DNA of 64,000 nucleotides from Asterionella formosa. Its lineage: Eukaryota. Positions 3,977-36,069 of this stretch are shown piece after piece. The stretch is taken from assembly GCA_002256025.1 (NCBI GenBank), contig NKIB01012935.1, positions 1 to 64,000 of the forward strand, read 5' to 3'. The notes under the pieces were generated by a model. It did not search any database and was not told the DNA's origin. It was given only the letters and a program-made list of their open reading frames with translations. A program made the translations under genes and the position numbers. The first letter of the stretch is position 1, and the number at the start of each line of letters is the position of its first letter.

Positions 3977-6469
3977 TTCAATAACACCGTAGATCTGGCC
4001 AAGCACAATTGTCTCAACTGCTGTTTCTTCATCTAACTAAGCAAACTTTGCCCAATCATACCAGAAATGACCACCACGGTAGCTTGGATGGGCATGAAAT
4101 ATTACGTTGTCACTACGAGTGTGGTCGGCCGCACATCACTTCAATTTCCATTGACAAAATGAAAGGAAGGAGTTGGGAGCTTAGAACTCGCACCAGATCT
4201 CGGTCAACCCCAGTTTTGCAGATGCTACTTGATGATGATGAAACCCTGGCAATCTCAAATTCACCATTTCCATCTTCTTCAATCAGAAGAGAATATCGAG
4301 TACCTCCTGTTTTGGATTTCACAATTCCAACGCCAGCTGGGACAGCTTCCAACTTGTATTGTAAATCTTCAATATCTTCGCCAAGAAGCTGACTACAAGC
4401 GGTTCCTATCACCATGTTCTCCACCATTCTCGCCCCACTTTGAATGTCCATCACGACAGCTTTCCGTTTCTGGGAAGTCCTGGCTGGTAATTTACACAAG
4501 AATTTAAGATTCTTTTCCATTGGGCCTCCATTAAAAACCTGTGGACTTCCGAAACGATAAATGTTTCTTACAGTATGAATCTGTTGATGAAACTTCGCAA
4601 GCTTCATTCCCTGAGAAGTTGTTGTTCTCGGGCATTCTTTTACCAGCTTAGTAAAATAGTTGACAACGCTTTGGTGTTCCTGTGGTAAATTTCCCACATC
4701 ATAGGTCTCTTTACTAAACCAGGAATTGTAGCAGAGCATCCCTTCGAATAGGCCTTGAAAGTTTCGAATTTCTTGATTGGTCATACCACTTTCTTCTCAG
4801 CAGATTTTGATTCCAGCATCACATGCCATTACATCACAGGCAATAAGCATCACTCCGATTCTTTCGTTGGCAGTTATTTTCGTTTTGCAACCATGAAAGC
4901 CGAAATTGAAGGAACAACGAGGAAAGTCTCGGTCACTCTGGTGAAGGAAGAGTTTAGATATTTTGTTGAACAACTGGTCAAACAGTTTTCGAATGGAATT
5001 ACCCTTCACTGTTTTGGGGCACCCGATCATATAAGAATATAGCTCCATGAGGTGATCCATTATTACTTCTTGAATGGAATGGAGTTTTTCAGGAGGAAAG
5101 TGCCCATTAACACCAAGAGGATCGCCACCAAAACACAACTGATACCAAAAGGGATAGATGAATCTTTGGCTCACATTATCCAATAAATCTTTTATGCCCC
5201 GGATTAATAGTTCCTCGTAATCAATCTGACCTACAGGACTGCATTCATGAGATGGATTGTCCGTTGAATCAAGCGGACAATCAAATTCACGACACATTCT
5301 GGCAGTCTTTAGATATGTTTTCTTTCGTCCGCATTGTCCATCTAAACCTTCAGCATCACCAAGAATTAGACCAACCGGAACTTTCACATTTAGTGTAAAT
5401 TGATTGCCTCCGAAATTGAAAATGTGTTTGAATCCACCAGCTTGTTGGACATTCTTGACCCCCTCAAGAATCACACCAAGGACAGCGTGATAATCGGATT
5501 CCTTTTGATCAGGGGTTAGGGACTGGATTTCAGATAGACTTGATGAGGTCAGCTTTAGGATCAATCCGATTGGCCGCCATGCATTGACCTTATTTCTCAC
5601 ATTGGTGGTAAATATACCAAGTGACATTAGGACAGGCTCCATTGTATACTTTCCTTTTTCAACCGTGTGTGTCTTGTCAATAAAGAACATGAGTGGCACA
5701 AGGATCTGACACTGGTGGCTGGACTGTGGTGCTTTACACAGATTGACGAAATCAAATGACACATTTTGTGGTGACATAAGTGTGTCATTTGTCAAGAGAT
5801 TCTTAACCTGAGCCATGAAATCAAAACATACAACATCCATCAGCTTTCCATCATGCAATATGGCCTGTTTCACCTGGGGAGTTAAATCATTCATGTTAAA
5901 TCGGTTTTGAAATTCTTTCAGAACAGTGGTCCTCCTGGGAGGAGAAGATTCAAAAATGAATCCAGCTTCCTGAGCTGTGCTGCAGAAACTCATGATTTGA
6001 TCATACATATAAAGAGGAGAACGGGTGCCGAGCAAAAGACTAAACAGTCGAGACTTCATAACATCGCCAACTGAGAATGGTATACCAGGATCGGCGGAGG
6101 AAAACCTAATCCCTGTGGTGCTCAGGACTGGAATAGTATTGGTTTCATCCTGTACCACTATTTCGCTTGTATTTTCTTCATCTTCTTTTTGATCAATGTC
6201 GTATGTATTGGTATGATCGCCAAAATGTAGTGTTTGAACATGACAAAATTTGGCCCTTTTCTTTAATGACAACGAAAAGTCATCAGCAGGTGCCGTGATG
6301 GTGGAGATTGATGAAATCCATCATATTCTTCCTGACCGTCATCTGGACCAGTTGCTGGTTTACGAAACAACTCAGCAGCTGTTTCGCATTTGGGGCTATG
6401 TGCGTAATGACGGTTAAGGGAAACAAACGGACCCTTACCACATATCAAACAGCAATCGTCGTCGTTCAT
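3960..6469 (-). pseudogene. Plavaka-family transposase, nearly intact
   Basis: N-terminal Zn finger CLICGKGPFVSLNRHYAHSPKC (frameshifted). Core motifs PLMFFIDKTH, EPVLMSLG, YHAVLGVIL, ILGDAEGLDGQCG, EKLHSIQE, HQSDRDFPR. In-frame TGA at 4797-4799. Then LAKFHQQIH...FGSPQVFNGGPMEKNLK. A frameshifted C-terminus reads FHAHPSYRGGHFWYDWA. Confidence 0.8.
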
Positions 6470-7455: not shown

Positions 7456-9328
7456 TTTCTGCTGTTATCCTTTTGGATCTTATTGTTGGAAACTAGGAGC
7501 TAGCTCATGGTGCATCGTGGTTACTGTGACTGTATGTCTACCCTTCTCTTGCTTGTTCTTTGCCCTCCGTTTGAACTGAATATGAATTGTTTGTTAAGAA
7601 ATGGAAAAAGGTCTTATGTGAGTTTAAACAGCTATCATCTTACTCTGTGAGTCATGTTCTTCTCTTCCAGAAAAGCAACGAGGACTCAGTTGCGGGCCGG
7701 TTCTGGAAGAAACAGACAGGCAATTGTTTTGTTATTCCTCGTCAGTAGTACAGAAAGGATGCATCTGAAAGTTCGAGAAATATTTGGTAAGCAGTTAATA
7801 TTTTGGAAAATGGAGACAGGTTGTGTGTTACATTGTTGTTGTTGTTCCTCTCGTTGCTCTGCATCATCGTGTTCTTCGACTGTGTTCGGAACTATGTTTG
7901 ATTGTTGTTGTAGTTCCTCTACCTCCATTTCGTTTTTCCTCTTGCTTGTTCCGTTTGTATTTGGAACAGTGGTCAGTCATGAACTTACTCTGTGAACCTT
8001 GTTCTTTTCCTACGGACAATCAAACTGTTTTTGGCAGGGCAGGGTTGAACCTTGGGAAGAATGAAATGTGTTGTACTCTGTATCAGGCAGGCTATCAATA
8101 ATTTGTTTTTCGCATTGTCGAAACGATTCCTCTGGTGCGAAGGGGACAATAATATACATGGTAAGCAAGTGCAATGTTTTCTTGCCTTTTGTTGCTTGAT
8201 ACTGTTTGCTGTTGCTTGTTGTGGGCGGATCTCCTCTCCTGTTCTCCTTCGTCTTTGTTCGGAATTGTTAGCGCATGAATTGCTCTTTGTAATGAATTAT
8301 AAAAAGGGCTTGATTGTGTGCTTGTTACTTGCTTGTTGATCATGAACTTACTCTGCAAACGCTGTTCTTTGTCTACAGACAATCTATCTGCTGAGCGAGA
8401 GATTTGTTGGGAATCAGGCTGCGGCATGGTAGCTAAGCACAACGAAAATGATGCCTTTGTAATGATTGTTTGTTCATGAAATTAGCCACTCTGCGATTGT
8501 TGTTCACTGATCGCAGACAATCATATGATCAGGGCTGGGTTGGCCATTGGGGAACCACAGCAGAACCGAAATCATGGCTTCGTAACTTTTTTCTCATCAA
8601 CTCACTCTGCAAATGTTTCCCTCTTTCTACAAAAGACAATCAATCCGAGCAATGAGAATGAACAGCCGGCTCATTTGCTATGAATTGATCTACCAGTAGT
8701 AGTAACATGGATTCCTGCAAGTACTATGAGTAGCCAAGCAATCTTGCGACTAGTTACAGCATCCAGCTGCAAGAATGAACATCCATTGCTTGTCGTATTG
8801 GTTTGAGAATCACGTTCTATAGAAAGTGTAAATATAAACTATATAGCGACGAAGCGATTAATTTGATTGATTTTGCGATTGTAGCTAGAATTTAATTTAA
8901 ACGTTGATTGCTTCAACATAATTATTTGTTTGACTAGCATATATGTTTGTTTAACCTTGAGGTATTAATGTGATCAAAGTAAAGATAAAATGGGAGCAAA
9001 CTAACAGAATTAATGGTAGTCAGAGTGAAGAATATTTGTGAACGGAAATGGTGCGAATTGTAGAGAAAAGTACCGTATTAGAGAGATTATGACTGAACAA
9101 ATTTTTCTTCGTGTCGCAAGAAAATATTGTCAGTTGGCCCCAAAAATTATGTGGGTTTCTAAAATTATTATGGAAGTTGTCGAAACTATTTTAGTTCACT
9201 CCGTCCATATATATTGTATGATGCATCATATTTTATTGTGATGTCATACCCTTAAATTATGTACGTAGCTAAATTTGTCATATTGGGCCACCCAAATAAT
9301 TAATTTGGGTGATCATATTTGACTAGCG

Positions 9329-11765
9329 TTTTTTTTGTGGCGGCTGTACCAGTAATCGGCATTGTAGATGGAGGAGATTATGGGACAATACTACCGAAAC
9401 TCCTACTGAAGAACTCCCACGCATGTGTTTCGTCCCTACATTGGAAGACGAGCGGTACAAAGACCAATACTGCGCGTCAAGCAACGGAATGGAGCGCTGG
9501 CTCGCGGACACTGGGGCTACCATGCACATCACTATGACTGACGAAAACATGACAAACGTCGAAAATGTCAATGTCTTGGTCATTGTTGGTGATGGCAAAG
9601 AGGTGATATTCTAATTACCATCAAAACGTGCTCCATGTTATTACGCAAGGTACTCTACACTCCACACTTCCACAAGAACATCGTAAGCATCGGGCAATTT
9701 GTTAAGAACAGATGGTGTGAGGCACCACGCATGAAAGGGTCCGAGTTGAATCTACATAAGGAAGGGTACAACAACGAACTTTCCTTTCCTTGTGAGGATC
9801 AATACAACGACGACCTTTCCTTTTCTTGTGAGGATCAAGGCGTCCTTTACTACCTTAAGGGAAAACATATCCTACTAATCCGAAACGGTCTTGTCTACCC
9901 ATGACATGACAATATACCCTACACCCGATCCTAATCCAACGATTACCAAGACAGTGATGCAACTTCCTATGCCAAAGACTACCAAGAAACCAACGCAAAT
10001 GGACATCAGCGAGGCCCATGACAAATACAGCCACATCAGCAAGGCATCCCTTCTTCGCGCAACGCTAAAGTCCCTTGGAATTGAACCTACTGGCAAGATT
10101 CAGTCATGTGAAGCCTGCACACTAGCTAAGGCAAAGGCCATTACACTTTTTGCTTAAAATTGTCCGAAAATGCATAATGAGTTAGTCGGGGGAACTCGGG
10201 ATTTTGACTAAATTTGTAGCAAATCAATATTAATTTCTATCAATGATAGAACCTTTTCCTAACTAAATCTTCAATGACTCTTTTTACTTAGTGTATTGAA
10301 CATCGAAAAATAATAATAAATTTGTACAATTGTACATTTTTGTCAAGAAATCGGTTGCATAATGTATCAGATGTACTTGCGTTTTCGACATGGAACACAT
10401 CATACTACATACAACAAACCTTGTACATTCTGTATATAGAGCGTTACATATTATGTATGCTTGGCATACTTACTACTGGGTACTACCAGTACTTGCATGT
10501 GTGTTTGTACAGCTGCCTGTGGTATGGGGTTGATGAGACAGCAACTCCATCTTGAGCATGACGAAATTATGGATTTGAATATCTTGACGAGTATTGACAG
10601 CGAACAATTTCTTTTTCGCACGAGTATGTAGACTAACATAGACCAGAATATTGTTCAATAAAAACTTTCTGCAATAGTATTGACAACAAAAAGTTGAAAT
10701 CGGTGCTGGAAGTTGTTTTTGGTCGACATTTGCTCAGTTTTGAAGATATGACCAAAAACGAAACATTGTTAAGTCCGCGGTGATTAGCTTGATAACTTTG
10801 ACTAGATAAGGTTTGCTATGTTTTGTAGAAATGGATGAGAAAACTTGAGCGACCACAGTATTCTCGGAGAGGGTACAACATTTTTCAAGATGCAACAAAT
10901 TCAATTACATCAATTTTATAGTGATTTTCATATACACATTAATTGTCATGGTCTATATTTATATGGAATCTTGATAAGGTCATTTGACACTTTACTATAG
11001 ACATACTTTTAGCCATTCAACAATTCACTGCTTTTTTTATGCGAATACAAACTTCACATTGCAGAAATGGTCACGAACTCCCCTGAGTGACAGTTTATGC
11101 ATTTTCGGACACTTTTATGCAAAAATTGTATTCTTTCTAGTACGCTTCCTACGCTGCGACAACGCCGGTGAAAACATGACCAGTCTAGGTATCATCTGCC
11201 CCACGCAGGGTATTCAGATTCAGTATACTCCCCCCCCCACATACTCCTCAACAGAACGGAGTAGTGGAACGAAAATTTGTGACAAAACTAGACCAAGCAT
11301 ACGCCTCCATGTTCAGCGCAAAACTGTCAGACGAATGAATACCACGGGCTACTGCCTGTGGGCCTAGAGTGTCCACATGCACATGCAACTAACAATCTCC
11401 ATCGCTAACTCGAATACGGAAAAATTCCCCAACTGGCTTTTCTACGGTTTCCAATCTTAAATTTATCCTCACCTGATTCAGTTTGGAAGGGTGGTGGGGT
11501 GGGCCACAATTCGGACGCCAAGGCAGAAATTAACCCCTAAGAGTATCAAATGTGTCATGCTTGGCTACAGTCATGACTCCACCTTAAATGGGTCGACTGG
11601 CATGGAATGCCAACAAACCGACAGCGGACATCATGGAAAAATTCACCACAGACAGATCCGGTATAGATGAGAAATTCGACACTAGAGAAGATATTGCCAA
11701 TGACTCAAGTACAGATTCCGAATTATCTCCTTCCCAATTGTCTGTATTTACATCTCCAGTTCCTG
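9329..11765 (+). mobile_element. Ty1/copia LTR retrotransposon pol remnant (protease, GAG-pre-integrase, integrase), interrupted by a MITE
   Basis: WLADTGATMHIT protease motif; AHDKYSHIS...SCEACTLAKAK zinc-binding motif; VRFLRCDNAGEN and (H)TPQQNGVVERKF integrase motifs; multiple stops and frameshifts. Confidence 0.85.
10144..11128. mobile_element. Non-autonomous TIR element (MITE), ~985 bp, TA-flanked (Tc1/mariner-like)
   Basis: Left TA|CACTTTTTGCTTAAAATTGTCCGAAAATGCATAA matches reverse complement of right end TA|CAATTTTTGCATAAAAGTGTCCGAAAATGCATAA; interrupts the copia integrase. Confidence 0.8.
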
Positions 11766-11789
11766 GCTGCTGATATTATATTGGATGAC

Positions 11790-12844
11790 GATTCTGAAAG
11801 ATCCCACCAGGTTATTAAGAAACAGGGACGACCTCCCAGGAATCAGAGAAAAAAAAATGCTGCAACTGCTCCCAAATATGCTAAGAAGCATTGCACATAC
11901 TATTGAGTAATTAGTGTCTTCTTCGATGAGAAACATCGGCAAGATGTTTTGTGTCTTGGGAATAGACCGACTACTATGTGTGAATTGGATGCAAGAAAAT
12001 TTCTCCATAAAGCAGTTTGGGACAAGTTATTGGATGCCTACATGGACATAGACGATGATACAGCTGGATCCAGGGCATTCAAACACACCCAGTTTGAATA
12101 CCCCGAAATTGATGATAACTATCCCCTCGCTTTTGAGACGTTGGTTAGCAAACAATTTTCAGAGGTTATGGAATTTCTAAATGCGCATTACAAGATCTGT
12201 TTCAATAATAACAAAGCTTCTGGTCGACACAATAACTTTGACAATTTCACCCAAAACCGGCCTTATTGTTTGTACTATCATTTATGGCTTCAACAGGTGC
12301 CACATTTCCGTGCCTATGCAGTACCAAGTTCAAGTGATGGTGTTACTATGGACAGCCTTATTCACATTCCCGCAGAGGATGATGTTGCCAAGCTACCTGT
12401 TCAACAAAGAAAAAGGTAGAAAATATGGCAGCAATAAGTTTGAAAACACATCAAAACAAGTGATCGATGCGCTTATGGAACTTTCAAAAGCAAATGAGCG
12501 CTGTACACAAATGACACTTGCCTCTCAAAGTTCCAATGCAGAATTTTCTCGAGCAACTTTTCTTGTAAAACGAGAGAAGGAACTAATTGATGTTGTAAGT
12601 ATGTACCGCGAAAAATTAAAGGAAGCTCGAACTGAAGTAGCAAGGAATGATGTGTCACAAAAATGTGATGGTAAAGAGTATCAAGAGAATGTCAGTTTTG
12701 TTGAATTTTTTTGAAGCCAAACTTTTTGAAGCAATGGATGCACTGAACAAGAATTCTGCAGCTCTAAACAAACAGCTGAAAAAAATGAATCTAGTAATAA
12801 TTAGTTTAACAATTTTTTTCTACTTAGTTCTTGTTATTACCTAA
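11790..12844 (+). pseudogene. Companion (second) ORF of PIF/Harbinger element, frameshifted
   Basis: Overlapping ORFs 11949-12419, 12181-12714 and 12647-12844 (coiled-coil C-terminus) converge tail-to-tail on the Harbinger transposase, the usual two-ORF layout. Confidence 0.5.
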
Positions 12845-12867
12845 TTCCTTCCAGTTGCAGTTGTGTG

Positions 12868-13865
12868 CTACATTAATCCTATCTCACTCAGTTCACGCCG
12901 TCGGCGCAACACATTAGCCGGAGGTCGCCTAAAACCATTGGTGGTGACAACATCAAGAATAATTTGCCGAATCTGTGAAGTACCTTGTACTAAATCCAAC
13001 TTCTTCCTGACAGTTGGAAGATAAGCCCACTCAAGAGGACCATTGGCCATTGGATCAACAAGCTCCAAACTAGTCAGAAATTCCATTCCATTAGCAAGTT
13101 CTTTCTTTTTATCATCATCCATGAGTAGGCGAAAATTGTGTAAGCGGGCACAAGCAGAGAGACGAATTGCAACTGATTTCTTCATCCTGAAGGACAAGGA
13201 TATCCTCAGGATCCTCCATTTATTGGTGAGCAACCCAAATGTGATCTCAATTCTAATGCATAGTTGTGAAAGGAAATAGTTATATGCATATTTTTGTTGT
13301 TGATTCCCTTTGACTTCCAACAAATGGACAAACTCTTGATCAGTCAATTTTTAAGGAGCATCGTCTACTATGCATTGTCCTGGACGAAGGTTGGATACAA
13401 TCTGAAAAAGCTTTGTTCTTTCAAATGCCTTCTGATCTGGACATTTTCCTGGTGCCATGACACCAAAGTATAGTAGGAAACAACAATTGCTGTCGCAAAC
13501 AGCTTGAAAATTCAATCCATATGACATATAATAACCAGACCAATATGCTTGAGGGAAGCCATCACAATCTTTTTTCTTGGTTTAGAAATAGGCTGTTAAT
13601 ATCCATCTATAGCACCACCAATGTATCAACGAAATAGTTGCTGCTCCGTTTTTTTCGAGGAATCCATTCATTACTGTTTGTTTCTCCTTGTTTGCTGTAG
13701 GGAATTATATTGATAATGTTGTGCAGGAGTTCACCGCATCAAGGAATGTTTTAGTGATGGCATAAACAGATGGATAAGAAACTCCATAGACATGACGAAT
13801 GTCTATGAGGTTTCCGCCTGCAAGCCAGCGAAGTCCGATGGCAAGGATCAACTCAGGATAAATAT
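12868..13865 (-). pseudogene. PIF/Harbinger DDE transposase (DDE_Tnp_4), C-terminal part
   Basis: IYPELILAIGLRWLAGG, GAIDG, GLNFQAVCD, YNYFLSQL(C)IRIEITFGLLTNKWRIL, ACARLHNF; stops and frameshifts. Confidence 0.88.
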
Positions 13866-15574
13866 CGTCTGCAAGAAATAAAAAGTATCATGCATATAGG
13901 ATCAAGGGTATCGTACGCTAAGTGGCACAGGAATTTCGTATATGTGATAATTATTGGATCAAAACTATGATCAAGGTATCATATAACTATGATGATTTTT
14001 TATTATTTTACCGACCTTGAAGTATGATGATAATAAGAACATTATCATCACACAATGTATATAAACTGATCAACAACATTCTCATCAATATCATAAACCT
14101 TCTCATATTATTTTCACTTCTCGTGATTGCCTGATGTAAATTATTACTACAACGCATCCTAAAATCAGCTCAACTCTATGCTATCATGTGAATTGTTTCA
14201 TCATATATCTATCTTAAACATGATCATAATTCTAATCACAAGCATTGTTCAAAATAGATTGAAATGGATCGTAATTTAACTATCAAATTTAGCAATACTA
14301 TATATAATTCTACAAGCCAGTGACTCAATGTTTCTCTCTCTACTTGACTCAATGTATATTCCTGTCTCGCCCTTTTCTTCCTCTATTCTGAATCTTTTGC
14401 CAAGCAATGCCTTACTACTATTGCGTCTCTCTCCCTGGCTGCTGTTAGTGTCATTCTGAACTCGCCGACTATTCCGTTGTTTGATCGGTTTTATTGTCCT
14501 ATGCAGTTACAGTAACAATGATAAGGAATGACTTGTTAGCTAGACATATTACACTGGCACAGCATCACGCCTTTACATCGTATCCTCTTGCTTGCTTCAC
14601 TTACCACAAATCAAATCAAGTGATGCATAAGTCTGTAATAGTAGTGAATTGTCAGTAAATTCTCGAATAAGTAAGTTTCAGGTATCCAATGTTGTCGAAT
14701 AAGACTTACCGATTCATTTTCGTTAGCTTAACTTTGAGAGAAGGTAAACGTGGAGTGTCCATCAGATATGTCCCAACAGAAGTGAATAGGGCCAACGACA
14801 AGAGCACTTACCAATTTTGTTTTGTTTTACATTGGTGCTCCCCAACAAGCAAAACGAGCTGTTGAATCAACTGAGAAAAAAGGAAATGTGCATTTAGTTT
14901 ACAATTTGTTGTTGTGCTGCCTCCCAACGATTGTCATCCAAGTACCACATTGATTGCTTCATCACCTTAAACATACTCCATCCTTCGAAGGCGCAATGTG
15001 TCGAAGCCACGATGTTTTTCGTTATTGCGTTAACTTTTCCTTTCTTGTCATATGCTTTACTACAAAATTTCTTTTCATGAAGCAGGCATTGTTTGTTAAC
15101 ATGACAGAACGATTTCAAATATATTTGACATGTATATAGTTATGAAATTTGTAAAAATATAAATATATCAAGTGTTGTACATTTATAAGATTCAAAGACA
15201 CTCTGAATATGGCACGTCTGGTAGCTAGTATTGTTGAGATGATCATATTTGCATATAGATAATTCGAAAATATTCAATGCACCATGTGTCCATTGTTTTC
15301 CACAACTTCGTGTACCGGTACTGTTTCTGAAATTTTTTTGCATCAATATTTTCTACGTCCGTCAGTAAAAAATTATTTAGGCCATTCAATTGGAGTAAGT
15401 CACAACCCATTTGTATCACTTTTTTAACGCAAGGATTTTGGTAGCAAATTATTTAAGCCCCTTTTTTGGGCGGGAGTTCTTCATGTATACTGGCACATCA
15501 TATGACAATAACATTTTATCATATATATATACATAGTGCCAGTAGCAGGTAGGAAGTGATATACTGGCGGGGGT

Positions 15575-16030
15575 AGTCAGAGTAGTAAGCGAGCAACAGA
15601 ACACCATATGATCAGGACTGTTGCTACTGCAGTGGGACAGTAAATCATCATAGTTTTTGGATTGTATGATCATAAAATCGAAAAAGGATAGTCGGAGTAG
15701 TAAGCGAGCAACAGAACACCATATGTTCATGACTGCTGCTACTGCAGCGGTATAAAAAGCATTATAGTTTCAGGATCGTATGATCATTAAATTGAAAAAA
15801 GATAGTCGGAGTAGTAAGCGAGCAACAGAGCACCATATGTTCATGACTGTTGTTTCTGCAGCGGGACGGTAAATCATCATAGTTTCAGGATCGTATGATC
15901 GTAAAATTGAAAGAGGTTAGTTGGAGTAGTAAGCTAGCAACAGAACACCATATGTTCAGGACTGTTGCTACAACAGTGGGACAGTAACAAAGCATCATAG
16001 TTTCAGGATCGTATAATCGTATTATTGAAA
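15575..16030. repeat. Tandem array, ~115-bp unit x4, inside the Plavaka-type element
   Basis: AGTAGTAAGC(G/T)AGCAACAGA...CCATATG starts at 15581, 15696, 15810, 15925; whole units are similar, with no unique spacers. Confidence 0.92.
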
Positions 16031-16233
16031 ACAAGATATGCTATTACTCAAACTCAGTTCTGATTTTGTATATGATAATGTCAATAGCACTGTTGGTTTT
16101 ATGGTATCATATCTAGACTGCGTAAAATATTACATGTAGTGGCTGATGATTCATTTTATTGTAGCTAGCAACACCTGATTTTAAGATCATTGAACTTTAA
16201 GGAAGACAACGACAACAGTTATCAAGTAGTACA

Positions 16234-17420
16234 ATGTCTTCAAGAAACCATAAAGAGGTTCATGGAAACAAGCGACATGTGGCAAATACTGCCGGTATGG
16301 AACAAAGAAGCAAGTACCAAAATGAGTCAACAAAGAAAAAGCGAATAGGCAATTATCCAAAGGAACCCAATCGGCGACAGGGAGTTAGTGGGGGTATTAA
16401 CCCATCGCCGATGGGGACACCATCAGCTCCTAGTACAAAGGATGCCGTAATTGATACTGAAAGCGATGATGACGTTTCTTTTTCAGTTGTTGATACAAGG
16501 TCCAATCACAAACAGGATTGGTTTGCCCAATGTTGACCTGCCTAATTAGGCTATACACAGTGAAACCGAAGTTAGGCAAAGAATTGGAGAGTGACCCAGA
16601 GCTTGCCGATTTCCGATTTCATATGGAATAGTTCTGGTGCACTGCTTCCGATGAATCAGACCATTGAAGCAGCGTACCAACAAGGCACGTTTAGATTACA
16701 TCAGAATCTATTGAATAATCACTTTAAAGGAATCTTTGGTAAGCTCTTGCAGGGTGGGAGATGCTCTGAAAGCATGATGTTTTGAGTCGGTGATTATTTT
16801 CTTATCAAATATGATTGAATTCAAAAATGCTAACATAATTCATGACACACCAGCTGGTTTAACAGAATATAACTTCCAGACTAAGGATATTGATGATTTT
16901 ATTAGGTGGGCGTTGACGCTTTATCGTTTTGCGCAGTCAAAGGACATTGAAAGGGGAAGCCATGGACACCAAGTCTGGCGTGATGTTCTTGCTCCAGTGT
17001 ATTATATAGGCAGGACAAGCCGTGGAGAACCATTCTAACAGGAGTAAAAGCTGGTGTGACCAAATGTCAACAAAGTCTTCGGGCACAGTGTGAATTGCAA
17101 TCACGTGTTGTTGGTTCGCTGATCATTGCCAGTACAGAAGCCTTTTACTTCTTGGCGCTGAAAGGAAAATTCCGATTGCAACAAAAATATTTGGGTCTAT
17201 CCAGATATGCATGAAATTTCAGAGAACAATATTCGTCATTCTACTGATTTTGTCGACATTGGTGGGAAACCACTTATCAGAAAAGTGTGAGCAAGGGAAG
17301 AAATTTCAGTTTCAAATGGTCTCACTGATCAATGGACTGATGATTTACTCGTTCATGCAATATAAGTAAATCAACACTGGACTTTCACAAAAGAATCGAT
17401 CTGAATATGAAGGAATCCTA
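16234..17420 (+). pseudogene. Degraded hypothetical accessory gene of the Plavaka-type element
   Basis: Successive short + strand ORFs (16234-16536, 16591-16785, 16790-17038) with coding-like composition upstream of the transposase. Confidence 0.35.
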
Positions 17421-18099
17421 GTAGAATTGATACTTCCACCACAAATATCATCTACTAACCACACTCATACTTCTCATTTCCCAACGCAAGTGAAGAGGAT
17501 GTGCATCAATATGTTGAACCACTTCAACCAAATGTTCCTGAGAAGAATAATGACCACATTAATAAACTGGACATTGATGACAACGTTGATTTTGAATGGA
17601 TCTAATAGAATCCAATGCATACTTAGTAGTTACATAATAAATATAGTTAGTGTGAGACTTCTACAATGCACAAACCATATCATAGATGTTAGGAAAACAT
17701 CGATGCTGCTCCATACTACTAGTAGTGCCGCCTGTACTGTATGTAGCGGTATACCTCCATTTTTACTACTATGGTGGAGTGATAATTTCACGACTCTGTG
17801 TTGTCCAGCACAGCATCATCGGAGTTATGCTAAAATTTCTATTTTTTATTCATTTTCATTCTATCCTGTTCATATCCTGACTTTGTCATCATTTGAAATT
17901 TGCAATGTCTTTGCGGACATTGCAATGGTGTTATCTGTGTAACTACAAATTTCGGAAGAACAAATCCCCATCTGAGTCTCACAATCGAAATTGTTGCAAC
18001 CGTGTTTTTTATGCCGCAAATGTTCACTGTCGACATTGCATGCAAGAACATCGAGTTCCTGGAATACATAATGAAACTATGTGTTGCGGCAATGCGCGC

Positions 18100-20810
18100 A
18101 TCGAATCATTCAAGGAAAGAAGTTAATGGCAGTGTAACTGCTGCAGCATTTAGGGAGAGTAGACAACAAGAAGAGATTATGTGTACTTTCCTTGAATCAA
18201 GTGGCCACAATCATCCATTTCATGACGACAGCGACGATTCAGTTTATAACAATATTCAGTCACAACAAGACGAACAATTGAGACTAAAAACTCTCCAAGG
18301 ATTGAATTCAGAAACCATGCAATATTCAGATTTCCAAGATCACACCGGCTTTCTCCCGTGAAAAATCAATGGAAATGCGCGTCCAGACCTCCTCAATTTC
18401 AACTTCCAAGTAAACATTCTCTAAACATGCATCCAATCGAATTAGAACTCATGTTATTTTTTAACGAGAATTATCTTCCACCAGTTTACTTTGATCATCT
18501 AATGAAATGGCTGTTTAAGGCAGAAGCAATGAAATATTCTGATGGAAGGTATCAAGCTCCATCTTACCAGACTTTGAAAAAACACATGGATATTTCATTT
18601 CCACCGACATAAGCTGCTGGTCAACTGTTGACCAAACAAATACAGATTGATAACGATTCAAACATGATCATCCCATGCACACTCCATTATTTCGAACCAG
18701 TACAGCTCATGGCAGGATTGCTACATGATTCTGATATCATGCAACATTTTGTATGTCACCCACAAGTGAAACTTACAACTTTTGGAGAACGCATACATGA
18801 CAAAGTAACTTCCGTGACTTGGTTTGAAAATTCATTCAACAATTCTCCTGCATCAGAAAATGGAGTGTTGAAGACAGGGTGTTTATTTGTTGCCCTAGCA
18901 GTTTTCAGTGATGGTTCTTCACCACCACATTAAGTCAGTGATGTGGAGAAACAAATGAATAATAAGTTATCTGGTGAGCAACGACTTCTCCTTATGTTGA
19001 CTCACATTATACCATTCTGTTACAGGATTTCTATTGTCGCCTGCCTTTCAAAGATCCAAACAAGTCATACAATATTTGGGTTCATGGTCTTGGTATGACA
19101 AAAGTTTATTTCCAGATTGGAATGATCATTGGTGATACAGAAGAGCACAACAAAATTTGTGGTTTCAGGGCAATGGATTAAATCGACGATTTGTTTGTCG
19201 TGATTGCCTGGTTTCAACTGAAGATGCTGATAATCCCGATATTGGATGTGAACGTCGTAAAATGTCAGATGTTAAAGATTTTTAAAACAAATATCTTGAC
19301 AAAAATGCATATCCTGATGGAAAATTACCATGTATCCCACCTGAGTATTGTGTCTCCCAATCTAATGGAAAATACACAACAGCAAACGAGTGGTGCCGTG
19401 TTATATCGCATAATCCTATTATGCCTGCACTAATAAATCATTTTTTTGGTGGTGACGTAGCAGGATTAATTGGTGTAACTTCATTCGAGATTCTTCATCA
19501 ATTACTACTTGGAATATTTAAGTACATTTTGGAATCATTGTACAATTATCAGACTATCCGCCCCTGAAGATAGGAAATTATTTTTAAAGAAAGAAAATCA
19601 CATATCCCAGAGAACATCTCCGATCATGAACATACCACAGAAACAACAGACTCTGCTTTTCTTGATCAAGAGCAACCGAAGAAACAGGCAAAGACCAAAG
19701 AGGACACACGCACCAGTTACCAAAAATATCTACACTGGCAAAGATCAAGACCCAGCACTTGTACCAGCACCAGAAATAAATGTATTTTCGAAACTTTACT
19801 TCGAACAAAGTGCTAGATACATCAATAGTCATTTGGAAAGGCAAAGCGATCTTGATATTCAAAAATTGTCATACAGATCTGGGATGACAGCTTTGTCGAA
19901 AATGTCAGGGCAAGACAAGAAATTCCCGGATTTTGTCTGTTAACTTTTTTTTCAAGGGGTGGAATGATGGGTTCAGAGAACATGCACCTAGAAAAGGATT
20001 TCACATTGCTGTTATGGTTATGAATATCTATCAATGACACTTTATTCATACCGGAGTATACATCAAAACATGTATTGATATTCTAGAGGAAAGGGTTAAG
20101 AGATTTATGTCAGCTACTAAGATTATGATTGGTCCCCAACAGGAAATGATATCTCAAATTGGCTTACGAATGGCAAAATTTCATGGAATAAAACATTACC
20201 CTCATTTGATTAGGAAGCTCGCTAGGATCTCCTCTTAATTTCTTTGGTGCATATTTGGAGTCTTTTTTGAAAGACAAATTGAAACGAGCGACCCAGTAAG
20301 CGTGTCAATGGATAATTACATGACATTTTAACAAGGTCATATGAAACAAGGCAGTTTTCCTTGGCACGAAAAATTGTTTCTGCAAGTGATACATTACATA
20401 CAGAAAACAAACAAAAGAAGATGAGTAAAGTATTACATATAAATGTACCTGAGGGTATTATTGATTTCGAGGGATGATTCCGGATACAAGGATGTTGCCT
20501 AGTACTAGTACGTCGCCTGATAATTTGGGAATATCGCCTACCAAGATCCATTCACCATCCCTTCCTGTTTAAGTTCAATTCTCAGCTTCATCATCAAATG
20601 GTCTATTGACTATAGCAGGTGTCCCTAATAAGATTGGGCATGTATCACGGAGTGAGGATGCACCCTTGTCTCAATTGTTTCATCTGCTTTGAAACCACAG
20701 GAATCAAGGAAATCTCTGAAACCGCAAGAAGTTTTGGAACAGATACGGAAAGATATCTTTTATGTTGTCATGCCTCCACGTGGTCATTTATGGAAATCAA
20801 TCGGGTGGGA
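18100..20810 (+). pseudogene. Plavaka-family transposase, heavily degraded
   Basis: Fragments across frames: YFDHLMKWL, LFVALAVFSDG, IGMIIGDTEEHNKICG, CRDCLV, FFGGDVAGLIGVTSFEILHQLLLGIFKY, ERQSDLDIQKLSYRSG, MAKFHGIKHYPHLIRK, GSPLNF, DWAC. Confidence 0.72.
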
Positions 20811-20961
20811 CCAAGAACTAACAAGCGAACGTTGATAAATACACAAGAATAATATAAATAATAGTGATAATATAGTTTCACATACTAGTTAAGTTATTAG
20901 AAGGTTTTCACAAACTAAAATGTCCTGAGGAATGATGAAATTGGAAGATCCCAATGGTCCA

Positions 20962-22570
20962 TTATTTGTTCTTTTTCACTCCTAGAGAACCTAAGATGGT
21001 CCTTCTCGTTTCGTCCGAAAATTTTCTTCTCCACTTTTCAACTGCAGTTCGATATGAGCCTGCAGACTTTTTCAATTTGATTCCAGAAGGGCTACCATCA
21101 GTTACATAATATTTTTTATAACATTTTGTCGATTTTGATGCATCCAGAAACTTGGCCAAGAGGTGCATGATTATACCATTTGAAGGGAGCAAGTTTGTCA
21201 TTACTTTGTTGTATCATGGATTTTACGTAGACAACTTCATCCTTCTTGAAAGAAGAGTTGCAAGGAACTCGTCCAAATACTTCGTTCAACATTTTTAAAT
21301 CTAAATAGGATGTCAAAATTTTGTCGATACAAAATTGAAGAACAGTTATTTCCAACTGAAACATATCCCCATGAGAATTTGTCGTTGTCACTTGAGGCCA
21401 AACTGTTCCAAGATGAAAGTATGTTGACTTGGTTGGTGGGTCAGATCTAATGGATAAGAAATCGTCTATTCGATTTGTTGCTGCCACCTGACGTTTTAAA
21501 GCTTTCCAGGACTCAGTCTCCAAACGGAAATGTGCCCGTTTGCCAAGAAATTTGGTTTTGCCATTCCTTTCTAATTGCAATAGAGTTTCCAAGACTTTCA
21601 CATTTGGATTTCAAGTTGACCACATCATCCTTCTTGAAAGATGAATTGCAAGGAACTCGTCCATATTCTTCGTTCGACATTTTAAATCTTTATAGAAGCT
21701 CAAAGTTTTGTCGATACATAATTGAAGAACAGATAGTATTTCCAACTGAAACATATCCTCACGAATGTTTGTCGTTGTCACTTGAGGCCAAACTGTTCCA
21801 AGATGAAAGGTTTTTGACTTGGTTGGTGGGTCAGATGTAACAGATGACAAGTCGTCTGTTCGATCAGTTGCTACCACCTGACTTTCCAGGACTCCGTCTC
21901 CAAACGGAATTGTGCCCGGTTGCCAAGAAATTTGGTTTTGCCATTCCTTTCTTGTTGCAATGGAGTTTCCAATACTTTCACAATTGTAAATGTTCCACAT
22001 GACCATCCACTATTATCTTCAGGTTGAAATAACATGGAATCATGTTCAGTGGCCATAATGATCTGCAATGGTGCTTTGGTGTCAGTATAGAAAGATTCCG
22101 ATAAACCAATTTCTTCAGGTGTACGGTATTCTTGTGGAAGATATCCTGTATCGGTGCATAACAATTCTAATTGTTTGGTGCATCCAGGGATGATGCAGTA
22201 CTTACGAGCAAGGTGAAATACTTGATCATAATGTTCATCCGCACTTGCATCTTTTCCTGGATCAAGGACTTGACATAATCCATCATTTATAGCAAAAAGA
22301 TAATGCACAAAATGATTCTTTTCCTCCTCATCTGATCTTTTACAATTAACAATTAGCACATAGTTACTGTCATGATGAAGTGGATGACAATCACCTTGGT
22401 ATATATATGGTTTGTTATTAACCTTTTCTGGGTTCTCATCCAGATCAAATATAACCTTTACATCAGCCAGTTGGATGAAGTTCATGAATTATAAATTGGA
22501 TCATAGAGTTAATTGTTTCAAGGTCCCAATATGCAAGATCTTTAAAATCTGAAGATGATTTTTTGATTCC
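20962..22570 (-). pseudogene. Ulp1/C48-like cysteine protease-domain gene carried by the element, frameshifted, with an internal ~388-bp duplication
   Basis: YWDLETINSMIQF (frameshifted, upstream of 22485), VLIVN...NHFV, QVLDP and FQPEDNSGWSCGTF occur in Ulp1 order (W..D/E.IN, H, D, Q..C); duplication ~21236-21600 vs ~21624-21980. Confidence 0.55.
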
Positions 22571-23681
22571 TTTGACTCTATAAAATACAGAGGCGTAATT
22601 GCATATTTCTTGTGAGGTACGTGTGTACAAATCTTTCCACAATTTTAGTTGACACTTGTCCCTCTATTGATGGGGATGACATGATGGACACCGACTTTTC
22701 CAGGAGCAAACAACAATGACGAGACCCATTTGTCGCTCTATTGATGGTAAGAAATATGCGGACAAGTTCAATAGTGAATACAAGAACAACATACCAATGA
22801 AAACAAGTCAACAGTGTGTGTTCGCACACGCCAACAAGCAGGTTTGAGGCAACGGACAGTTCCAACAAGCAAATGACAATACGGATGTCAAATTTTTCCT
22901 TCGAGCAAACAACAATGAAGAGAGCCACTCGCTTTCGCTCTCTTGTTGGTATCAATGATGTAGACAAGTTCCTTAGTAAATACAAGTACAGGATGCCAAA
23001 TGCAGAAACGAGCGATATGAAAAAGAAATTGTAATCAGAATCATTCTATAACTATAGCTATGTGGACAGTAGTCTGTTTTGCACATTTTCGTATCTCCTT
23101 CTATGCTGAATATCAATAGTAGATGTAGTATCATGTGAGAATTGAAAATGTCAACAAGAACAAGTAGGATGTGTTTGTTTACGGGTTGTTTGGCGAGATT
23201 GTAATGCTGGTGGTTGACGAAACGGACTTACTATTTGCGCTGTGTGCGGAACCATTACGAGTTCGAATGATTTCTTCTCTGTAAACTCTTAATTGAATGA
23301 TTATGAACAATGTTTCACTGACATGATGATTACTAAAAGATATAATGATCACTTGACCAACAATTGAAGACGTTATAGCAAACAATCATTCCACTTGTCA
23401 TCGCTAGTATTTCGTTGTTGTTGCAAAAATCGGGGTGATGACGGATGGAAATGACGAGCCAAATTGCATTACTTTAGCTGGTACATTATCCTACCAAGAA
23501 ATTCGAATACAGTAGGAATCTAATAGAAACAATACATATAAAATTTAAAAATGTGTAGACAAAAGGGCTACTATTTAAATTACAAGGGCATTTATCAAAT
23601 TTTTTAGATGATATTATGATCAGATGATCACAATCCTATACTATTGCATCATGGAAATATGATATTTTTTATTTGCAGACG

Positions 23682-24060
23682 ATGCTGATTTGAGCTGTAT
23701 AAAGCGGAACTTGCATTTGGTTTAACACCATTATTAACTGTGATGGAAGGTCGAAGGAGTTCCAGTATTTGATTGAAAGCTTCAAGAGACATGCAATAGT
23801 CACGATGAAATCTATTCTCATGAAGAGGAAGCTTTGTGACATGCTCATTCCAGTCAATTCGTTGATGCTCCCATTTTGGAATTCGCACTGGCTTCGAGTT
23901 TTGTTCAGAGGACTCCAAAAATGAGAATGCAACTGCTGAAACTAATAAAAAGCTCTGTTGTTCCGCTTCTATATCAAGATTGTCAATCATGACATCCCAA
24001 CTGTCAGGTTCTTCCGGTCGATTTGTAATTGTCGTTACAGTAATGATAATTGTCAGACAC
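23682..24060 (-). pseudogene. PIF/Harbinger transposase, N-terminal part (separated from 12868-13865 by the insertion)
   Basis: RIDWNEHV...FHRDYCMSLEAFNQILELLRP (Harbinger F..Y.MS...F..L motif); continues in frame across the excised insertion. Confidence 0.8.
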
Positions 24061-24199
24061 GATGAATAATTTAAGCGCACATTGCAAATATTTTTGCTGA
24101 GTTTGATGCACATGTTTTCAGAGACATAAAGAAAACGGATAACTGTTTTGCCGTTACAGAGATATATTTGTGAAATGTATCTCTGTGAAGATTCAATTT

Positions 24200-24252
24200 T
24201 TTTCTGAAGATACAACATAAATAATTTGTATCTCTGTTAAGATTGGCCCTAA
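24200..24252 (-). mobile_element. Probable Harbinger terminus (GGGCCAATC... followed by TAA)
   Basis: ...GATTGGCCC|TAA just upstream of the transposase; GGG-type terminus with TAA target is typical of PIF/Harbinger; matching other end not found. Confidence 0.45.
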
Positions 24253-24259
24253 CACAACG

Positions 24260-24860
24260 TTTAAATATCATTTTTGTTTGTTTTAAATGGAACTCTTTCA
24301 ATCTGGCGCCGGTTCCTATTTAATTCAAATTTGCAAATGGGCACTCGAATCATGGGAATTATAGTAGGAAACTCCCTGTTCCACGCCGTTTTTACAACCC
24401 TAGCGATATTTTCTCCAAACTAGGGTTAAGCTGGGGCCGGAACCTTCCCCGCAGTTACACATTGCGAGGTCCGTTTTCTTCCAAAATAATTCTATGATGT
24501 ACCTTAATCAACACATTAAGTACAAGTACATAAAATAGTTAAAGGTAAAAATAGCTTTCACCAATACGACCACTTTGCATATGCTTAGGTACAGTCATGG
24601 GTCGACTTAGGGGTATGTTCTATCTTCGGATATGGTAAGGACCTCATTTCTGGAAAGAAACTGCAGTTATGTATCGTAGATTCGTAACTTTCACAAAAAT
24701 GATCAAAAAAGGGGCTACGAAGCTTTTCTAAAGATCTACGATACATAACTGCAGTGTCTCTCCAGAAGTTAACTCCTGAAGTTATAGGGTACACGGCAAT
24801 CTACTTTGATCTTGATGAAACCCCGCAGATGTAGAGCAATCCTCTTCCAAAAAGTCTACC
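24260..24860. repeat. Dispersed non-autonomous repeat family with GGTT...AACC termini (two adjacent fragments)
   Basis: 24260-24446 aligns with 40726-40912; 24447-24860 aligns with 39725-40130 and 53641-53890. Confidence 0.8.
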
Positions 24861-26771: not shown

Positions 26772-27896
26772 CTACAAGAAATAGTCTGGTGGAGGATTTT
26801 TGATCGGTACACCTCGTGCTTCCTGTGGAGCGGCATCGAATATTTTAAACGATCGTTCCAAATTCTCATCGAGCTCCAATATGGCTGCCACATTTCCACA
26901 TCGGTAACAATAGTTAGGAGCACTCCAGACAGTCACTAATGCATCACTGAACATAGATCGATGGCCTTCCATGACCAATTGATGAGCTCTCGCAATCAAA
27001 TCCAGGTCGTTCCGTTCATTAAACATACTAACAATATCTCCACCGAACAAATACCCTGCACCCCTTGGCGATAAGCCCCATCCATCAATTTCTTCTGGAT
27101 CTGACCACATTAAGTCACACATAGCACCATCGTGAGGGACTTCTTGCTTTCGATCTATGACCCTGATTTGATCTAAAGTATTGATGCTAGGACTCAGCCC
27201 TCCGTGAACAGTAAATATCTTGTCTTCAATAATGGCAGAAAGAGAGAGGTAATCAAATATTTCCGTACAATACCTCCACACATTGACGCTCCCGTATTTT
27301 CGCAAGCATTCGTCGTAAAATCCATAGACCTGCGTAATTTGACGCGATTCATGATTGCCTCGAATGAGGGTAATGCGGTCGGGATATCTGACTTTGAGGG
27401 CCAACAGGAGCAGGAACGTTTCCACGGAGTAGTATCCGCGGTCGACGAAGTCACCAAGAAAAAGGTAATTCTTATCAGGGCATTCGCCTCCGACTTTAAA
27501 GAGTTCGACCAAATCGTAAAACTGCCCATGAATGTCCCCGCAAATCTGGCAGAAGCGAAACAGTAGTTGTGTGAACAACGAGATGAAATCGGCAGCAATG
27601 ACATCGCGGTAGTGTACAGAACGAAAGGATTATCTTACCGTCACCGGAGCATCCACTCTCTGCACATTGCTTTCATCAACCAGAATCTCTCGAGCTCGTA
27701 AGCAAAGTGCCTTGACCTCGCCCTCTCGCAAGTACTCACATCGCTTGAGACGCTCAATCTGTTCGTCCAAGCAGGAATTTCCGGACGCTGTCAGCGACGA
27801 CGCTGCCATGTTCGTTGTCAAGCTGCTTGCTTGCATCACGTGAGGAGGCATGACGGTCGCAGCGCCAGCTTCTGTAGGGTTTTTGGTGGCCATCAT
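26772..27896 (-). CDS. PPP4C: Serine/threonine protein phosphatase 4 catalytic subunit (2 exons: 27896-27639, 27545-26772)
   Basis: GDIHGQ, GDFVDRG, RGNHE, HGGLSP and [11 protein letters not shown] motifs, C-terminal DYFL; PP4-type [16 protein letters not shown] and [14 protein letters not shown] intron 27638-27546 joins APVT|ICGDIH; start ATG uncertain (27896 or downstream). Confidence 0.93.
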
Positions 27897-28047
27897 GGTG
27901 CTGGTCGGAATTCGGAAAATGCGGGCATTGGAAATAGAAGCAGAGACCTGTGACGACGGAGGCACCGTGCAGGCGGATGATACCAGGATTTCTGGCTATA
28001 TAGTCGTGGGGTGTGTGACAATCCACACACACGTTCCATTTTCTACT

Positions 28048-29101: not shown

Positions 29102-30303
29102 ACCGGACCTTCCACCATCATATTTATGTGTATGATAGCAGCAGTTGCAATGATGTCGCTAGCTTTGTGCTCGGTACCAGTAGTAGTTAACCACTAGCAC
29201 TAGCTTTGACTATGAGTCTAACTTGGAGTTTAATCTTTTATGACTAATAGGTCCCTGGTAATATTATGCACTATGAATATGATAAGTACATTAAAAAATC
29301 AAGTACATGGGCAGTCCACTGCCCAAGCACCCCAGCCATCTGGGCCATGGCAGAACACAACAGCAACAAATGAAATAGGTTACCAGTACTCCCTCTGGGC
29401 GAAAGCAATTGCGTCAATTTGAAGCAACTCCAGTACTGAGTAGCTTATTTCTAGGACACATTACGTAGAAAATTTATCATTTTTCTATGTGAGGCTTGGC
29501 TTCCTCAAAAAAGTTAGTTATTTAGAAGTGAGTATAAGCTCGTAATCAATAATTAAATTATTAGCATCTAAATAAATTATTCGAAACCAATTTAACATAT
29601 AAATATTGTTAGTGTACATGTACATATCACCAAATGCTGTTTTACTTTGGCCAGCCCTTCAAATATTTGCAGGAAACTGAATGCAACATATCACTATGAT
29701 AATTATAGCATGAATAGAGCACATGTTGTTTCATATATACATTCTATGGTTGTTGCACTTACATGAATCATACCACCAGACATATGATGATTCTAATCAT
29801 CAAAACAAGCGCACCATTGTTTTCTGCCTTCCCATCATTGCCACTTTCCATGATCAATGTCAAGTTACTGTTGTTCTATGACACTGTCATGTCCTGCTTT
29901 GTATGTATGTAGAGAATAGATGGTTTGAAGAAAAAGGATCCTCATACATCTGCATTTTGCTCAAGATGGCCATAAGTGAAAGTCGAAAAAGCGCAAAAAC
30001 TTTTTGAAATGTAGTTGCCAATTTCAAATTAATACATATATATCAAATATGGATCTGTAGCTAAGCGCAAGGCACACATTCGGGCAATTAAGCCAGAGAA
30101 AATTGTAGGAGTCAAAATGGCCCAAGAGAAATTTTAAGAATTGATGCAATTGTTTTCGCCCAGAGGGATTACTGGTAGTACATATGCGCTATGCAAATGG
30201 TTACTCTTTCTGTACATGTCCTGCGGGCAACAACACGACAACATCCAGAATTCATCTATTTCGCTTTGGCTCTTGTATCCAGTTTGCCCCCCTCCTGCCC
30301 AAG

Positions 30304-35198: not shown

Positions 35199-35830
35199 CA
35201 ATTCCCGCTCTACCTATCGTTGCGTCATTCGCTTACCTACTACCCACAAATAAAGCATAAATGTCAATTTTAGCGTACTATTGCCCATCATATAAAATAT
35301 ATTTTGTTTATTTCCTATCTTCACCTCGAAAATTGCGAAAGGTCCGATATTGCCCCATCATTAAAATACAATTTTTTTATTTCATATGTTCGAATGTTGG
35401 CAAGACAACAGACGCCAATTGCCCCTCGGTTTTCCAGCCCTGGCTGGGATTGCCGAAATCGGCAAGGGGTCTACTTAAGGAACCCATTTTATATACTACG
35501 CAGATTTTCAAAATTTATATCTGCAATTCACCTCGTTTTTGTTTGTCTCCTGAAAAGTGGACTCCGGCAATTCACCTTTCACCATGCCAATTGTCGTCCA
35601 TCATAACCGGGTTGAAGCGAAATCAGTTCCGCGATGACGCCAGTAGCAATTCGTTGTCTAACGGATGCGGTTGGTTGTTGGATTGCTTGTGTTCTCGAGG
35701 TTGTCATGCTAAAATCGGCAATTTTAATGCCGAAAAATTCGATATGCCCCATATTGCCCTGAAATAAAAATTACTTAAGAAATTACTTAGAAGTACCCGA
35801 GTGGCAAGACGATAGCTTGAGCGGGAATTG
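35199..35830. mobile_element. ~630-bp MITE with imperfect TIR CAATTCCCGCTC.A.CTATCGT and TATTGCCC subterminal repeats
   Basis: Left CAATTCCCGCTCTACCTATCGT vs reverse complement of right end CAATTCCCGCTCAAGCTATCGT; no clear TSD. Confidence 0.65.
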
Positions 35831-36069
35831 CTAGTTGATTGCTAGTACACTAGCTTTCACCACGGTCGTAAAAGGTTGCACGGTGGGTTGAAATTCTTGC
35901 ATGTACCATCCTGGTACTCCAATAGTTAACTCGCCACAATAATTCCTTCCGACGGCGTTGCAAAACAGAGTATGATTCAGTCACAATCGTTCTGCTTATC
36001 ATTCAGTTATGTGCTTGGATCGTTGAACTTTTAAGCTACCCCGACCCGTGGCCCTGTTCCTTGAGAAGA

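What the first reader, a model, noticed from the sequence alone, without database searches (positions are those of the whole stretch)
13866..23681. Exact boundaries of a 9.8-kb Plavaka-type transposon, defined by insertion into a Harbinger gene
Seen: inverted termini CGTCTGCAA...TATCAT flanked by AT on both sides. Removing 13866-23681 plus one AT fuses the two Harbinger halves in frame (...SSNQH|IYPELILAIGLRWLAGG). Inside are a Plavaka transposase remnant, accessory ORFs, a tandem array and ATCATA-rich subterminal regions. Established: Plavaka transposases are related to the CACTA/Mirage/Chapaev group, which make short TSDs. Inference: this gives the TIR, a 2-bp TSD and the full cargo of a diatom Plavaka element with CG- rather than CAC-starting ends; to my knowledge such ends are poorly documented.
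Basis: partly seen in the sequence, partly recalled or inferred. Interest (0 to 1): 0.72.

Follow-up and report, generated by a model that had tools for sequence, protein, structure and literature searches.

The report
Dead diatom Plavaka transposon, CG ends
A 9.8-kb cut-and-paste jumping gene has landed inside another jumping gene in a diatom-like genome; its ends and 2-base target duplication are real and differ by one letter from those described for fungal Plavaka elements, but this copy is broken and has lost about a quarter of the element.

Summary
Boundaries confirmed. 13866-23681 is one copy of an abundant family (827 end matches, control 0) inserted in a Harbinger transposase gene; 18 of 19 other Harbinger copies have the length of the predicted empty site. 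Family ends are a 23-bp inverted repeat starting CGTCTGCAA. 11 of 21 paired copies have an exact 2-bp duplication (shuffle mean 1.7), of varied sequence, so AT is a target duplication, not part of the end. The transposase is Plavaka-type (Pfam over cut-off in sister copies; D-D-CxxC-H3H-E). 'Full cargo' is wrong: this copy lacks about 2.85 kb in four deletions, two inside the transposase, and has a private 390-bp duplication. The right comparators are fungal PlavakaA (TGT ends) and PlavakaB (CATCA ends), both with 2-bp duplications (PMC12730594); CG is one transition from each. Two accessory genes: one orphan, one with Ulp1-like motif spacing (profile and fold tests inconclusive). I found no paper on diatom Plavaka ends. 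The scan noted this family or a sister before, on other contigs of this genome. A modest variant of a known kind.

The parts
13864..13865 (.). left copy of the 2-bp target site duplication (AT)
   Evidence: empty sites
13866..13891 (+). left terminal inverted repeat (family 23 bp; here with a 3-base insertion)
13892..14265 (.). left subterminal region with ATCATA/TATGAT words, some at 22-23 bp spacing; candidate protein-binding sites (inferred)
15574..16031 (.). tandem array, 4 x 115 bp, also in sister copies; shares a 21-23 nt word with a motif cluster in the segment deleted at 22651
16234..17605 (+). accessory gene A remnant, no family match; about 482 bp deleted at 16500
17905..20850 (+). 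Plavaka-type transposase pseudogene (about 1,170 aa in the family reading; start and end approximate). Catalytic D at 18910 and 19134, CxxC 19196-19207, H-x3-H 20182-20196, E 20258; about 117 bp deleted at 18917 and 482 bp at 20684; many stops and frameshifts
20962..22651 (-). 3' part of accessory gene B with H..D..Q..C motif in Ulp1-like order; its 5' part lies in the 1.77-kb deletion
21217..21986 (.). 390-bp tandem duplication, absent from the sister copies that span it (L091, L093, L094, L099, L100, L107)
23659..23681 (-). right terminal inverted repeat (23 bp)
23682..23683 (.). right copy of the 2-bp target site duplication (AT)
11681..13865 (-). host Harbinger element, downstream part: 3' part of its transposase gene (PF13359 DDE_Tnp_4, 25.9 bits, cut-off 24.8) and a convergent second ORF; truncated at about 11681
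23684..24249 (-). host Harbinger element, upstream part: 5' part of its transposase gene and its end (..GGCCC followed by TAA)

Best explanation
It is a dead, internally deleted copy of a ~12-kb, three-gene cut-and-paste DNA transposon of the Plavaka lineage (CMCT group), of which the genome holds roughly 400 copies. An intact member's DDE transposase bound the 23-bp CGTCTG-starting inverted ends (probably helped by the repeated ATCAT/ATGAT words), excised the element and joined it to a target with a 2-base stagger and no clear sequence preference. Repair of that stagger duplicated AT inside a Harbinger transposase gene. Shown: ends, duplication length, empty site, transposase class, deletions. 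Inferred from the CMCT/DDE family: the cut-and-paste chemistry and the role of the subterminal words. The copy later (or during gap repair at its parent site) lost four segments and gained stops. CpG deamination, probably from DNA methylation, turns the CG ends of many copies into TG or CA. Gene B is probably a divergent Ulp1/SUMO-type protease (about 60%); gene A is an orphan, most likely a DNA-binding or anti-silencing helper (weak inference).
For: 827 end matches at <=1 mismatch against 0 for the reversed control. Flanks outside CG differ among the 60 end loci fetched. 11 of 21 convergent end pairs have identical 2-bp flanks, 6 differ at one base, 4 at both; 0 of 100,000 shuffles reach 11. 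None of the 21 has a 3-bp match (read). The 11 duplications are AT x2, AA x2, TG, TT, TA, CA, GA, TC, AG. Empty Harbinger sites. Plavaka PF18759 over cut-off in same-family copies: 32.9 bits, 37 and 32.3 bits. Atlas first hits are Plavaka clusters at 0.96. D332-D440-CxxC462-H787xxxH791-E811 align with 9 intact relatives. CpG transitions 9.6% against 2.4-3.0% at other cytosines. Gene B: H-D spacing 17, as His514-Asp531 of yeast Ulp1; Q..GxWSCG is kept in relatives at 41-45% identity.
Against: 10 of 21 pairs lack an exact duplication, more than 4-5% divergence alone would predict; some pairs may be chimeric or mis-paired. For L091 I used the outer left end; the inner left end would be a miss. 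The window's own transposase fragments do not pass the Pfam cut-off (best 15 bits). The family is only 20-24% identical to the best intact relatives, and I could not build a tree with labelled fungal Plavaka proteins. No fetched copy is full length (longest pair 10.9 kb), so the ~12-kb layout rests on a majority reading of broken copies. For gene B, Pfam found nothing and the Atlas Peptidase_C48 row is a weak lead (0.81, rank 6); Q-C spacing is 9, against 6 recalled for Ulp1.
Confidence: 0.88

Rival explanations
1. AT is part of the end (AT is its own reverse complement), or the element has TCG ends and inserts between A and T with no duplication.
For: At this one site both readings give the same empty site.
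Against: Bases outside CG vary among copies; only 2 of 11 exact duplications are AT.
Confidence: 0.02
2. It is a divergent EnSpm/CACTA-type (or other CMCT) element that only resembles Plavaka.
For: PMC12730594 reports EnSpm families of rust fungi that resembled Plavaka transposases; the CxxC and H3H motifs are shared across CMCT; one Atlas row is Transposase_21 (0.90, rank 30); Ulp1 cargo is known in plant CACTA (PMC2528002).
Against: No CAC ends and no 3-bp duplication; Pfam Plavaka over cut-off; 22 of 30 Atlas hits carry the Plavaka family; the ends follow the fungal Plavaka pattern (CATCTGGAAAT of PlavakaB-1_GyCo matches 9 of 11 bases).
Confidence: 0.08
3. The family is a mix of actively transposing end variants (CG, TG, CA), so CG is not the sole functional end.
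For: Of the first 100 exact-core ends listed, 64 start CG, 22 TG, 9 CA, 5 other (counted by hand).
Against: 31% TG+CA equals the CpG decay of the first 500 bp (mean 0.28); in the 21 pairs changed ends are one-sided, always opposite a CG end, although most pairs were picked from lists enriched for CG ends.
Confidence: 0.1

Closest known systems
PlavakaA and PlavakaB of Agaricomycotina fungi (Kojima 2025, PMC12730594; abstract, passages, section 3.1.6, supplement parts 1, 19, 20 and a term search seen)
   Same: PF18759 transposase with D-D-C(2)C-H(3)H-E; 2-bp duplication of varied sequence; short inverted ends of pattern YRTCNSNAAA; length of order 6-12 kb
   Different: Ends start CGTC, not TGTC (A) or CATC (B); diatom-type host; accessory genes are an orphan and an Ulp1-like gene, no TET/JBP gene found; 20-24% identity to the nearest intact transposases found
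Giant red-algal Plavaka elements of Bostrychia (bioRxiv 10.1101/2025.02.11.637652; passages seen, supplements closed)
   Same: High-copy, mostly degenerate Plavaka families with accessory genes and an internal tandem array
   Different: Those are 17-19 kb with PAG1-3 (methylase/SET, ParB-2OG oxygenase); no such domain was found here; their terminal sequences are not in the passages I could read
Plant CACTA/EnSpm elements with a ULP1 domain (PMC2528002; passages seen)
   Same: CMCT-group transposase next to an Ulp1-like gene
   Different: CAC ends and 3-bp duplications; different transposase family

Membership tests
Plavaka lineage (CMCT group) | Transposase matching Pfam PF18759 | tested here: met
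   Same-family copies over the 26.3-bit cut-off: 32.9 bits, 37 and 32.3 bits; window fragment only 15 bits; Atlas 0.96
Plavaka lineage (CMCT group) | DDE triad with C(2)C and H(3-4)H between second D and E | tested here: met
   (family reading aligned with 9 intact relatives); codons readable in the window
Plavaka lineage (CMCT group) | Terminal inverted repeats and 2-3 bp target duplication | tested here: met
   23-bp inverted ends; 11 of 21 pairs exact 2 bp
Plavaka lineage (CMCT group) | Transposase groups with fungal Plavaka in a tree | not testable with these tools
   No labelled PlavakaA/B proteins could be fetched; supplement sequences and tree are cut
PlavakaA | 5'-TGT..ACA-3' ends | tested here: not met
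   Majority end is CGT
PlavakaB | 5'-CATCA..TGATG-3' ends | tested here: not met
   Majority end is CGTCT (same calls); PlavakaB-1_GyCo itself starts CATCT
EnSpm/CACTA in the strict sense | CAC ends and 3-bp duplication | tested here: not met
   0 of 21 pairs with a 3-bp match; CG ends
Ulp1/Peptidase_C48 (accessory gene B) | His-Asp-Gln-Cys catalytic set in order | tested here: inconclusive
   H82, D99, Q178, C187; H-D 17 apart, Q-C 9 apart; motif kept in distant relatives; motif alone is not proof
Ulp1/Peptidase_C48 (accessory gene B) | Profile or fold match to C48 proteases | tested here: inconclusive
   Atlas lead 0.81; low-confidence model, pLDDT 47, so fold searches are uninformative
PIF/Harbinger (host element) | DDE_Tnp_4 transposase, GGG..CCC-type end, TWA-like target | tested here: met
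   25.9 bits over cut-off 24.8; end ..GGCCC followed by TAA, TTA, TTA, TGA in 4 copies looked at; the end and target rule is recalled

The most novel reading that the evidence does not exclude
This is a third, CG-ended Plavaka subgroup of diatoms, and a CpG end is the ancestral or intermediate state of the lineage. Methyl-CpG deamination on one strand gives TGTC (PlavakaA) and on the other CATC (PlavakaB), the two changes seen accumulating at these ends in this genome. Host methylation would thus have driven the divergence of transposon end sequences.
Probability: 0.2. Interest if true: 0.62.

Novelty: new variant of a known kind. Interest (0 to 1): 0.36.

Why it matters
It gives exact ends, duplication length and gene layout for a Plavaka family outside fungi and green or red algae, in a diatom-type genome where it occupies several hundred sites. 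That is useful for repeat libraries and extends the CMCT end rule (mostly CA..TG) to CG..CG. If the CpG-intermediate idea holds, it links host methylation to how transposon end specificity changes. The copy itself is dead and teaches no new mechanism.

Tried and rejected
AT as part of the end, or no duplication: rejected. 3-bp duplication: 0 of 21 pairs. Excision footprint in Harbinger copy L115 (3 extra bases at the junction): it shares only 2 of 44 window-specific variants, so it does not descend from this insertion; slippage is more likely. The read joint that skips the element in run X1 has the junction type of other Harbinger copies (L127/L128), so it is no evidence for an empty allele. 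Unusual hypermutation of the terminal CpG: not supported, the rate matches nearby CpG sites. Homology search with a natural transposase piece against longer proteins found nothing. Gene B: Pfam of 31 aligned members, PDB profile search, two low-confidence models and fold searches gave no C48 match; this is no evidence against it. The representative search gave 51 hits, nearly all short fragments of close relatives; P0060 was dropped as a spurious repeat protein and P0046 as a poor aligner before alignment A4, which holds 30 of the 51 hits. Gene A: no Pfam family in 5 natural fragments. Ends of the sister family on C12973 were not found. Of the 20 one-ended 8-10 kb stretches fetched (11, 9), few gave a second end. 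RNA run X23 holds only short pieces near the ends, too little to say anything on expression. Paper searches for a diatom Plavaka description; the two papers holding both words are on a green alga and a mushroom (listing only); a diatom TE preprint has no CACTA/EnSpm/CMC wording. Repbase was not searchable.
Full report
Observation. The window reads AT, then CGTCTGCAA from 13866, and the reverse complement ends at 23681, followed by AT. Joining the flanks with one AT gives a continuous minus-strand frame through SSNQH|IYPELILAIGLRWLAGG. The downstream half matches Pfam DDE_Tnp_4 (25.9 bits, cut-off 24.8), as expected of a Harbinger transposase. Of the 19 other Harbinger copies fetched (best 20 loci of 40 matches), 14 read CAT-ATT exactly, 16 have one AT, 18 have the empty-site length, and one has three extra bases. 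The boundaries are therefore exact.

Ends and target duplication. Because AT is its own reverse complement, this site alone cannot separate a duplication from a longer inverted repeat. Other copies do. A 21-base end pattern has 827 matches at up to one mismatch, and the reversed control has none; that suggests about 400 copies. Among the 30 left-end and 30 right-end loci fetched, similarity stops at the C and the outer bases vary. The family repeat is 23 bp with one mismatch; the window's left end carries a 3-base insertion. I found 21 convergent left/right pairs, the window included. Eleven have identical 2-bp flanks, six differ at one base, four at both; shuffling gives a mean of 1.7 and never 11 in 100,000 trials. 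None has a 3-bp match. The duplicated dinucleotides are of nine kinds, so there is no clear target preference. Against: ten pairs are imperfect, more than 4-5% divergence predicts, and for L091 I took the outer of two left ends.

Transposase. The window's own fragments are too broken to pass Pfam (best 15 bits). Copies of the same family, 88-91% identical in DNA, do pass: 32.9 bits, 37 and 32.3 bits (identity). A natural 424-residue piece gives Plavaka clusters as first Atlas hits (0.96, 22 of 30 hits). A majority reading of the copies gives about 1,170 residues with D332, D440, CxxC at 462, H-x3-H at 787 and E811, aligned with nine intact relatives. This is the signature that PMC12730594 gives for the CMCT group. 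The family is distant: 20-24% identity to the best 15 of the intact relatives compared. The genome also holds other Plavaka families with long open frames. Seven silicon-transporter matches support a diatom host.

Not the full cargo. Against sister copies the window lacks about 482 bp at 16500, 117 bp at 18917 (just after the first catalytic D), 482 bp at 20684 and 1,770 bp at 22651, and has a private 390-bp duplication. Contigs of run X5, from another study, run on into other sequence at three of these points. The full element is about 12.0-12.3 kb; the longest paired copy fetched is 10.9 kb. Among 115 loci with at least 1 kb aligned, divergence from the majority reading has median 4.4% and minimum 2.4%. 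The family looks inactive, with the caveat that young copies may be collapsed in this fragmented assembly.

Accessory parts. Gene A (plus strand, upstream of the transposase) has no Pfam match in five natural fragments. Gene B (minus strand, converging on the transposase) has H, D, Q and C in Ulp1 order, with H-D 17 residues apart. Yeast Ulp1 has His514 and Cys580 (PMC2172760, passages) and Asp531 (search listing only); Gln574 is recalled. Relatives at 41-45% identity keep the FQP..G.WSC motif. Profile and fold tests were inconclusive, so I put Ulp1-like at about 60%. Ulp1 domains are known cargo of plant CACTA and Mutator elements (PMC2528002, passages). ATCATA/TATGAT words are enriched at the left end (7 in 400 bp, 0 of 5000 shuffles) but not at the right end of this copy (2; 561 of 5000). 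In three sister copies they recur at about 22-bp spacing near both ends and in a cluster within the segment lost at 22651, which shares a 21-23 base word with the 115-bp array. A role as binding sites is inference by analogy with CACTA subterminal repeats (recalled).

How it works. Shown: paired ends, 2-bp duplication, random targets, a DDE enzyme of the Plavaka type, insertion into an older Harbinger. Inferred from the family: excision at the ends and joining with a 2-base stagger; internal deletions from aborted gap repair or later decay; silencing by CpG methylation. CpG transitions run at 9.6% against 2.4-3.0% for other cytosines, and are higher in the outer 2 kb on the left (0.27-0.28 per site).

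Comparison with what is known. PMC12730594 describes PlavakaA (TGT..ACA, 2 bp) and PlavakaB (CATCA..TGATG, 2-3 bp) in fungi and says CMCT ends are CA..TG in most cases. Its supplement shows starts such as TGTCGGAAAAAT, CATCAGCAAAAC and CATCTGGAAATG (11 of 71 places of the term seen, plus Figure S2). CGTCTGCAAAT fits that pattern and is one transition from each subgroup at the first two bases. It fails the stated end rule of both, so I file it in the Plavaka lineage but in neither subgroup; a tree could not be made. Plavaka is also reported from red and green algae and an ichthyosporean (passages); the original 2014 description is recalled, not read. I found no paper on diatom Plavaka elements; Repbase and preprint supplements were not visible. 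Intact relatives in public collections are already labelled 'Plavaka transposase' by one source.

The bold reading. Of the first 100 exact-core ends, 64 start CG, 22 TG, 9 CA and 5 otherwise. TG and CA are the PlavakaA and PlavakaB starts. In this genome they look like decay after insertion: the rate matches nearby CpG sites, and changed ends are one-sided in the pairs. Whether the same change once founded the fungal subgroups is open (20%).

Verdict. Earlier notes of this scan describe what appears to be this family, or a sister, on other contigs of the genome; I reached the reading before seeing them. New variant of a known kind, interest 0.36.

Noticed in passing
window 4113-6320 (-): Broken transposase of a different Plavaka family, 92% identical in protein to L072, whose family has near-intact frames on many short contigs; its ends were not defined.
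   Followed up: partly
window 42292-43280 (+): Orphan right end (about 990 bp, 88% identical) of the same CG-ended family, with no left end found in the window.
   Followed up: partly
L115 (G000:C14413, Harbinger junction): Harbinger copy with three extra bases at the insertion point, resembling a footprint; not related to the window copy, probably slippage.
   Followed up: yes
L003:1229, L008:39, L099:5899, L104:8650, L108:1919: Ends of related families that share the first 9-11 bases and then diverge; one starts CG, four TG.
   Followed up: no
L140-L141 (G000:C12973, about 9200-14100): Sister family, 71-74% identical in DNA, with the strongest Plavaka score in the genome (63 bits) and a weak match to gene B on the same strand as its transposase.
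   Followed up: partly
window 41270-41401 / 51010-51141 and 41805-41872 / 50907-50974: Two inverted-repeat pairs about 9-9.6 kb apart, possibly the ends of another large element.
   Followed up: no
window 38090-39607, 29381-30177, 10142-11130, 35198-35831: Short elements framed by 39-60 bp inverted repeats, MITE-like.
   Followed up: no
window 24256-24860, 39750-40131, 40722-41270, 53683-53971: Several copies of a hairpin-rich repeat next to the Harbinger end; may be the foldback family of note e1-7576463.
   Followed up: no
window 26772-27995 (-): Intact-looking PP2A/PP4-type phosphatase catalytic gene (named from recall of the sequence motifs).
   Followed up: no
window 5-657; 49059-49328; 50660-50734: 193-bp tandem array at 98% identity; 27-bp proline-rich coding-like repeat; GGTACCT runs scattered in the window.
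   Followed up: no
window about 11300-11680: Sequence left of the truncated Harbinger resembles a copia integrase remnant (recalled motif, not tested).
   Followed up: no
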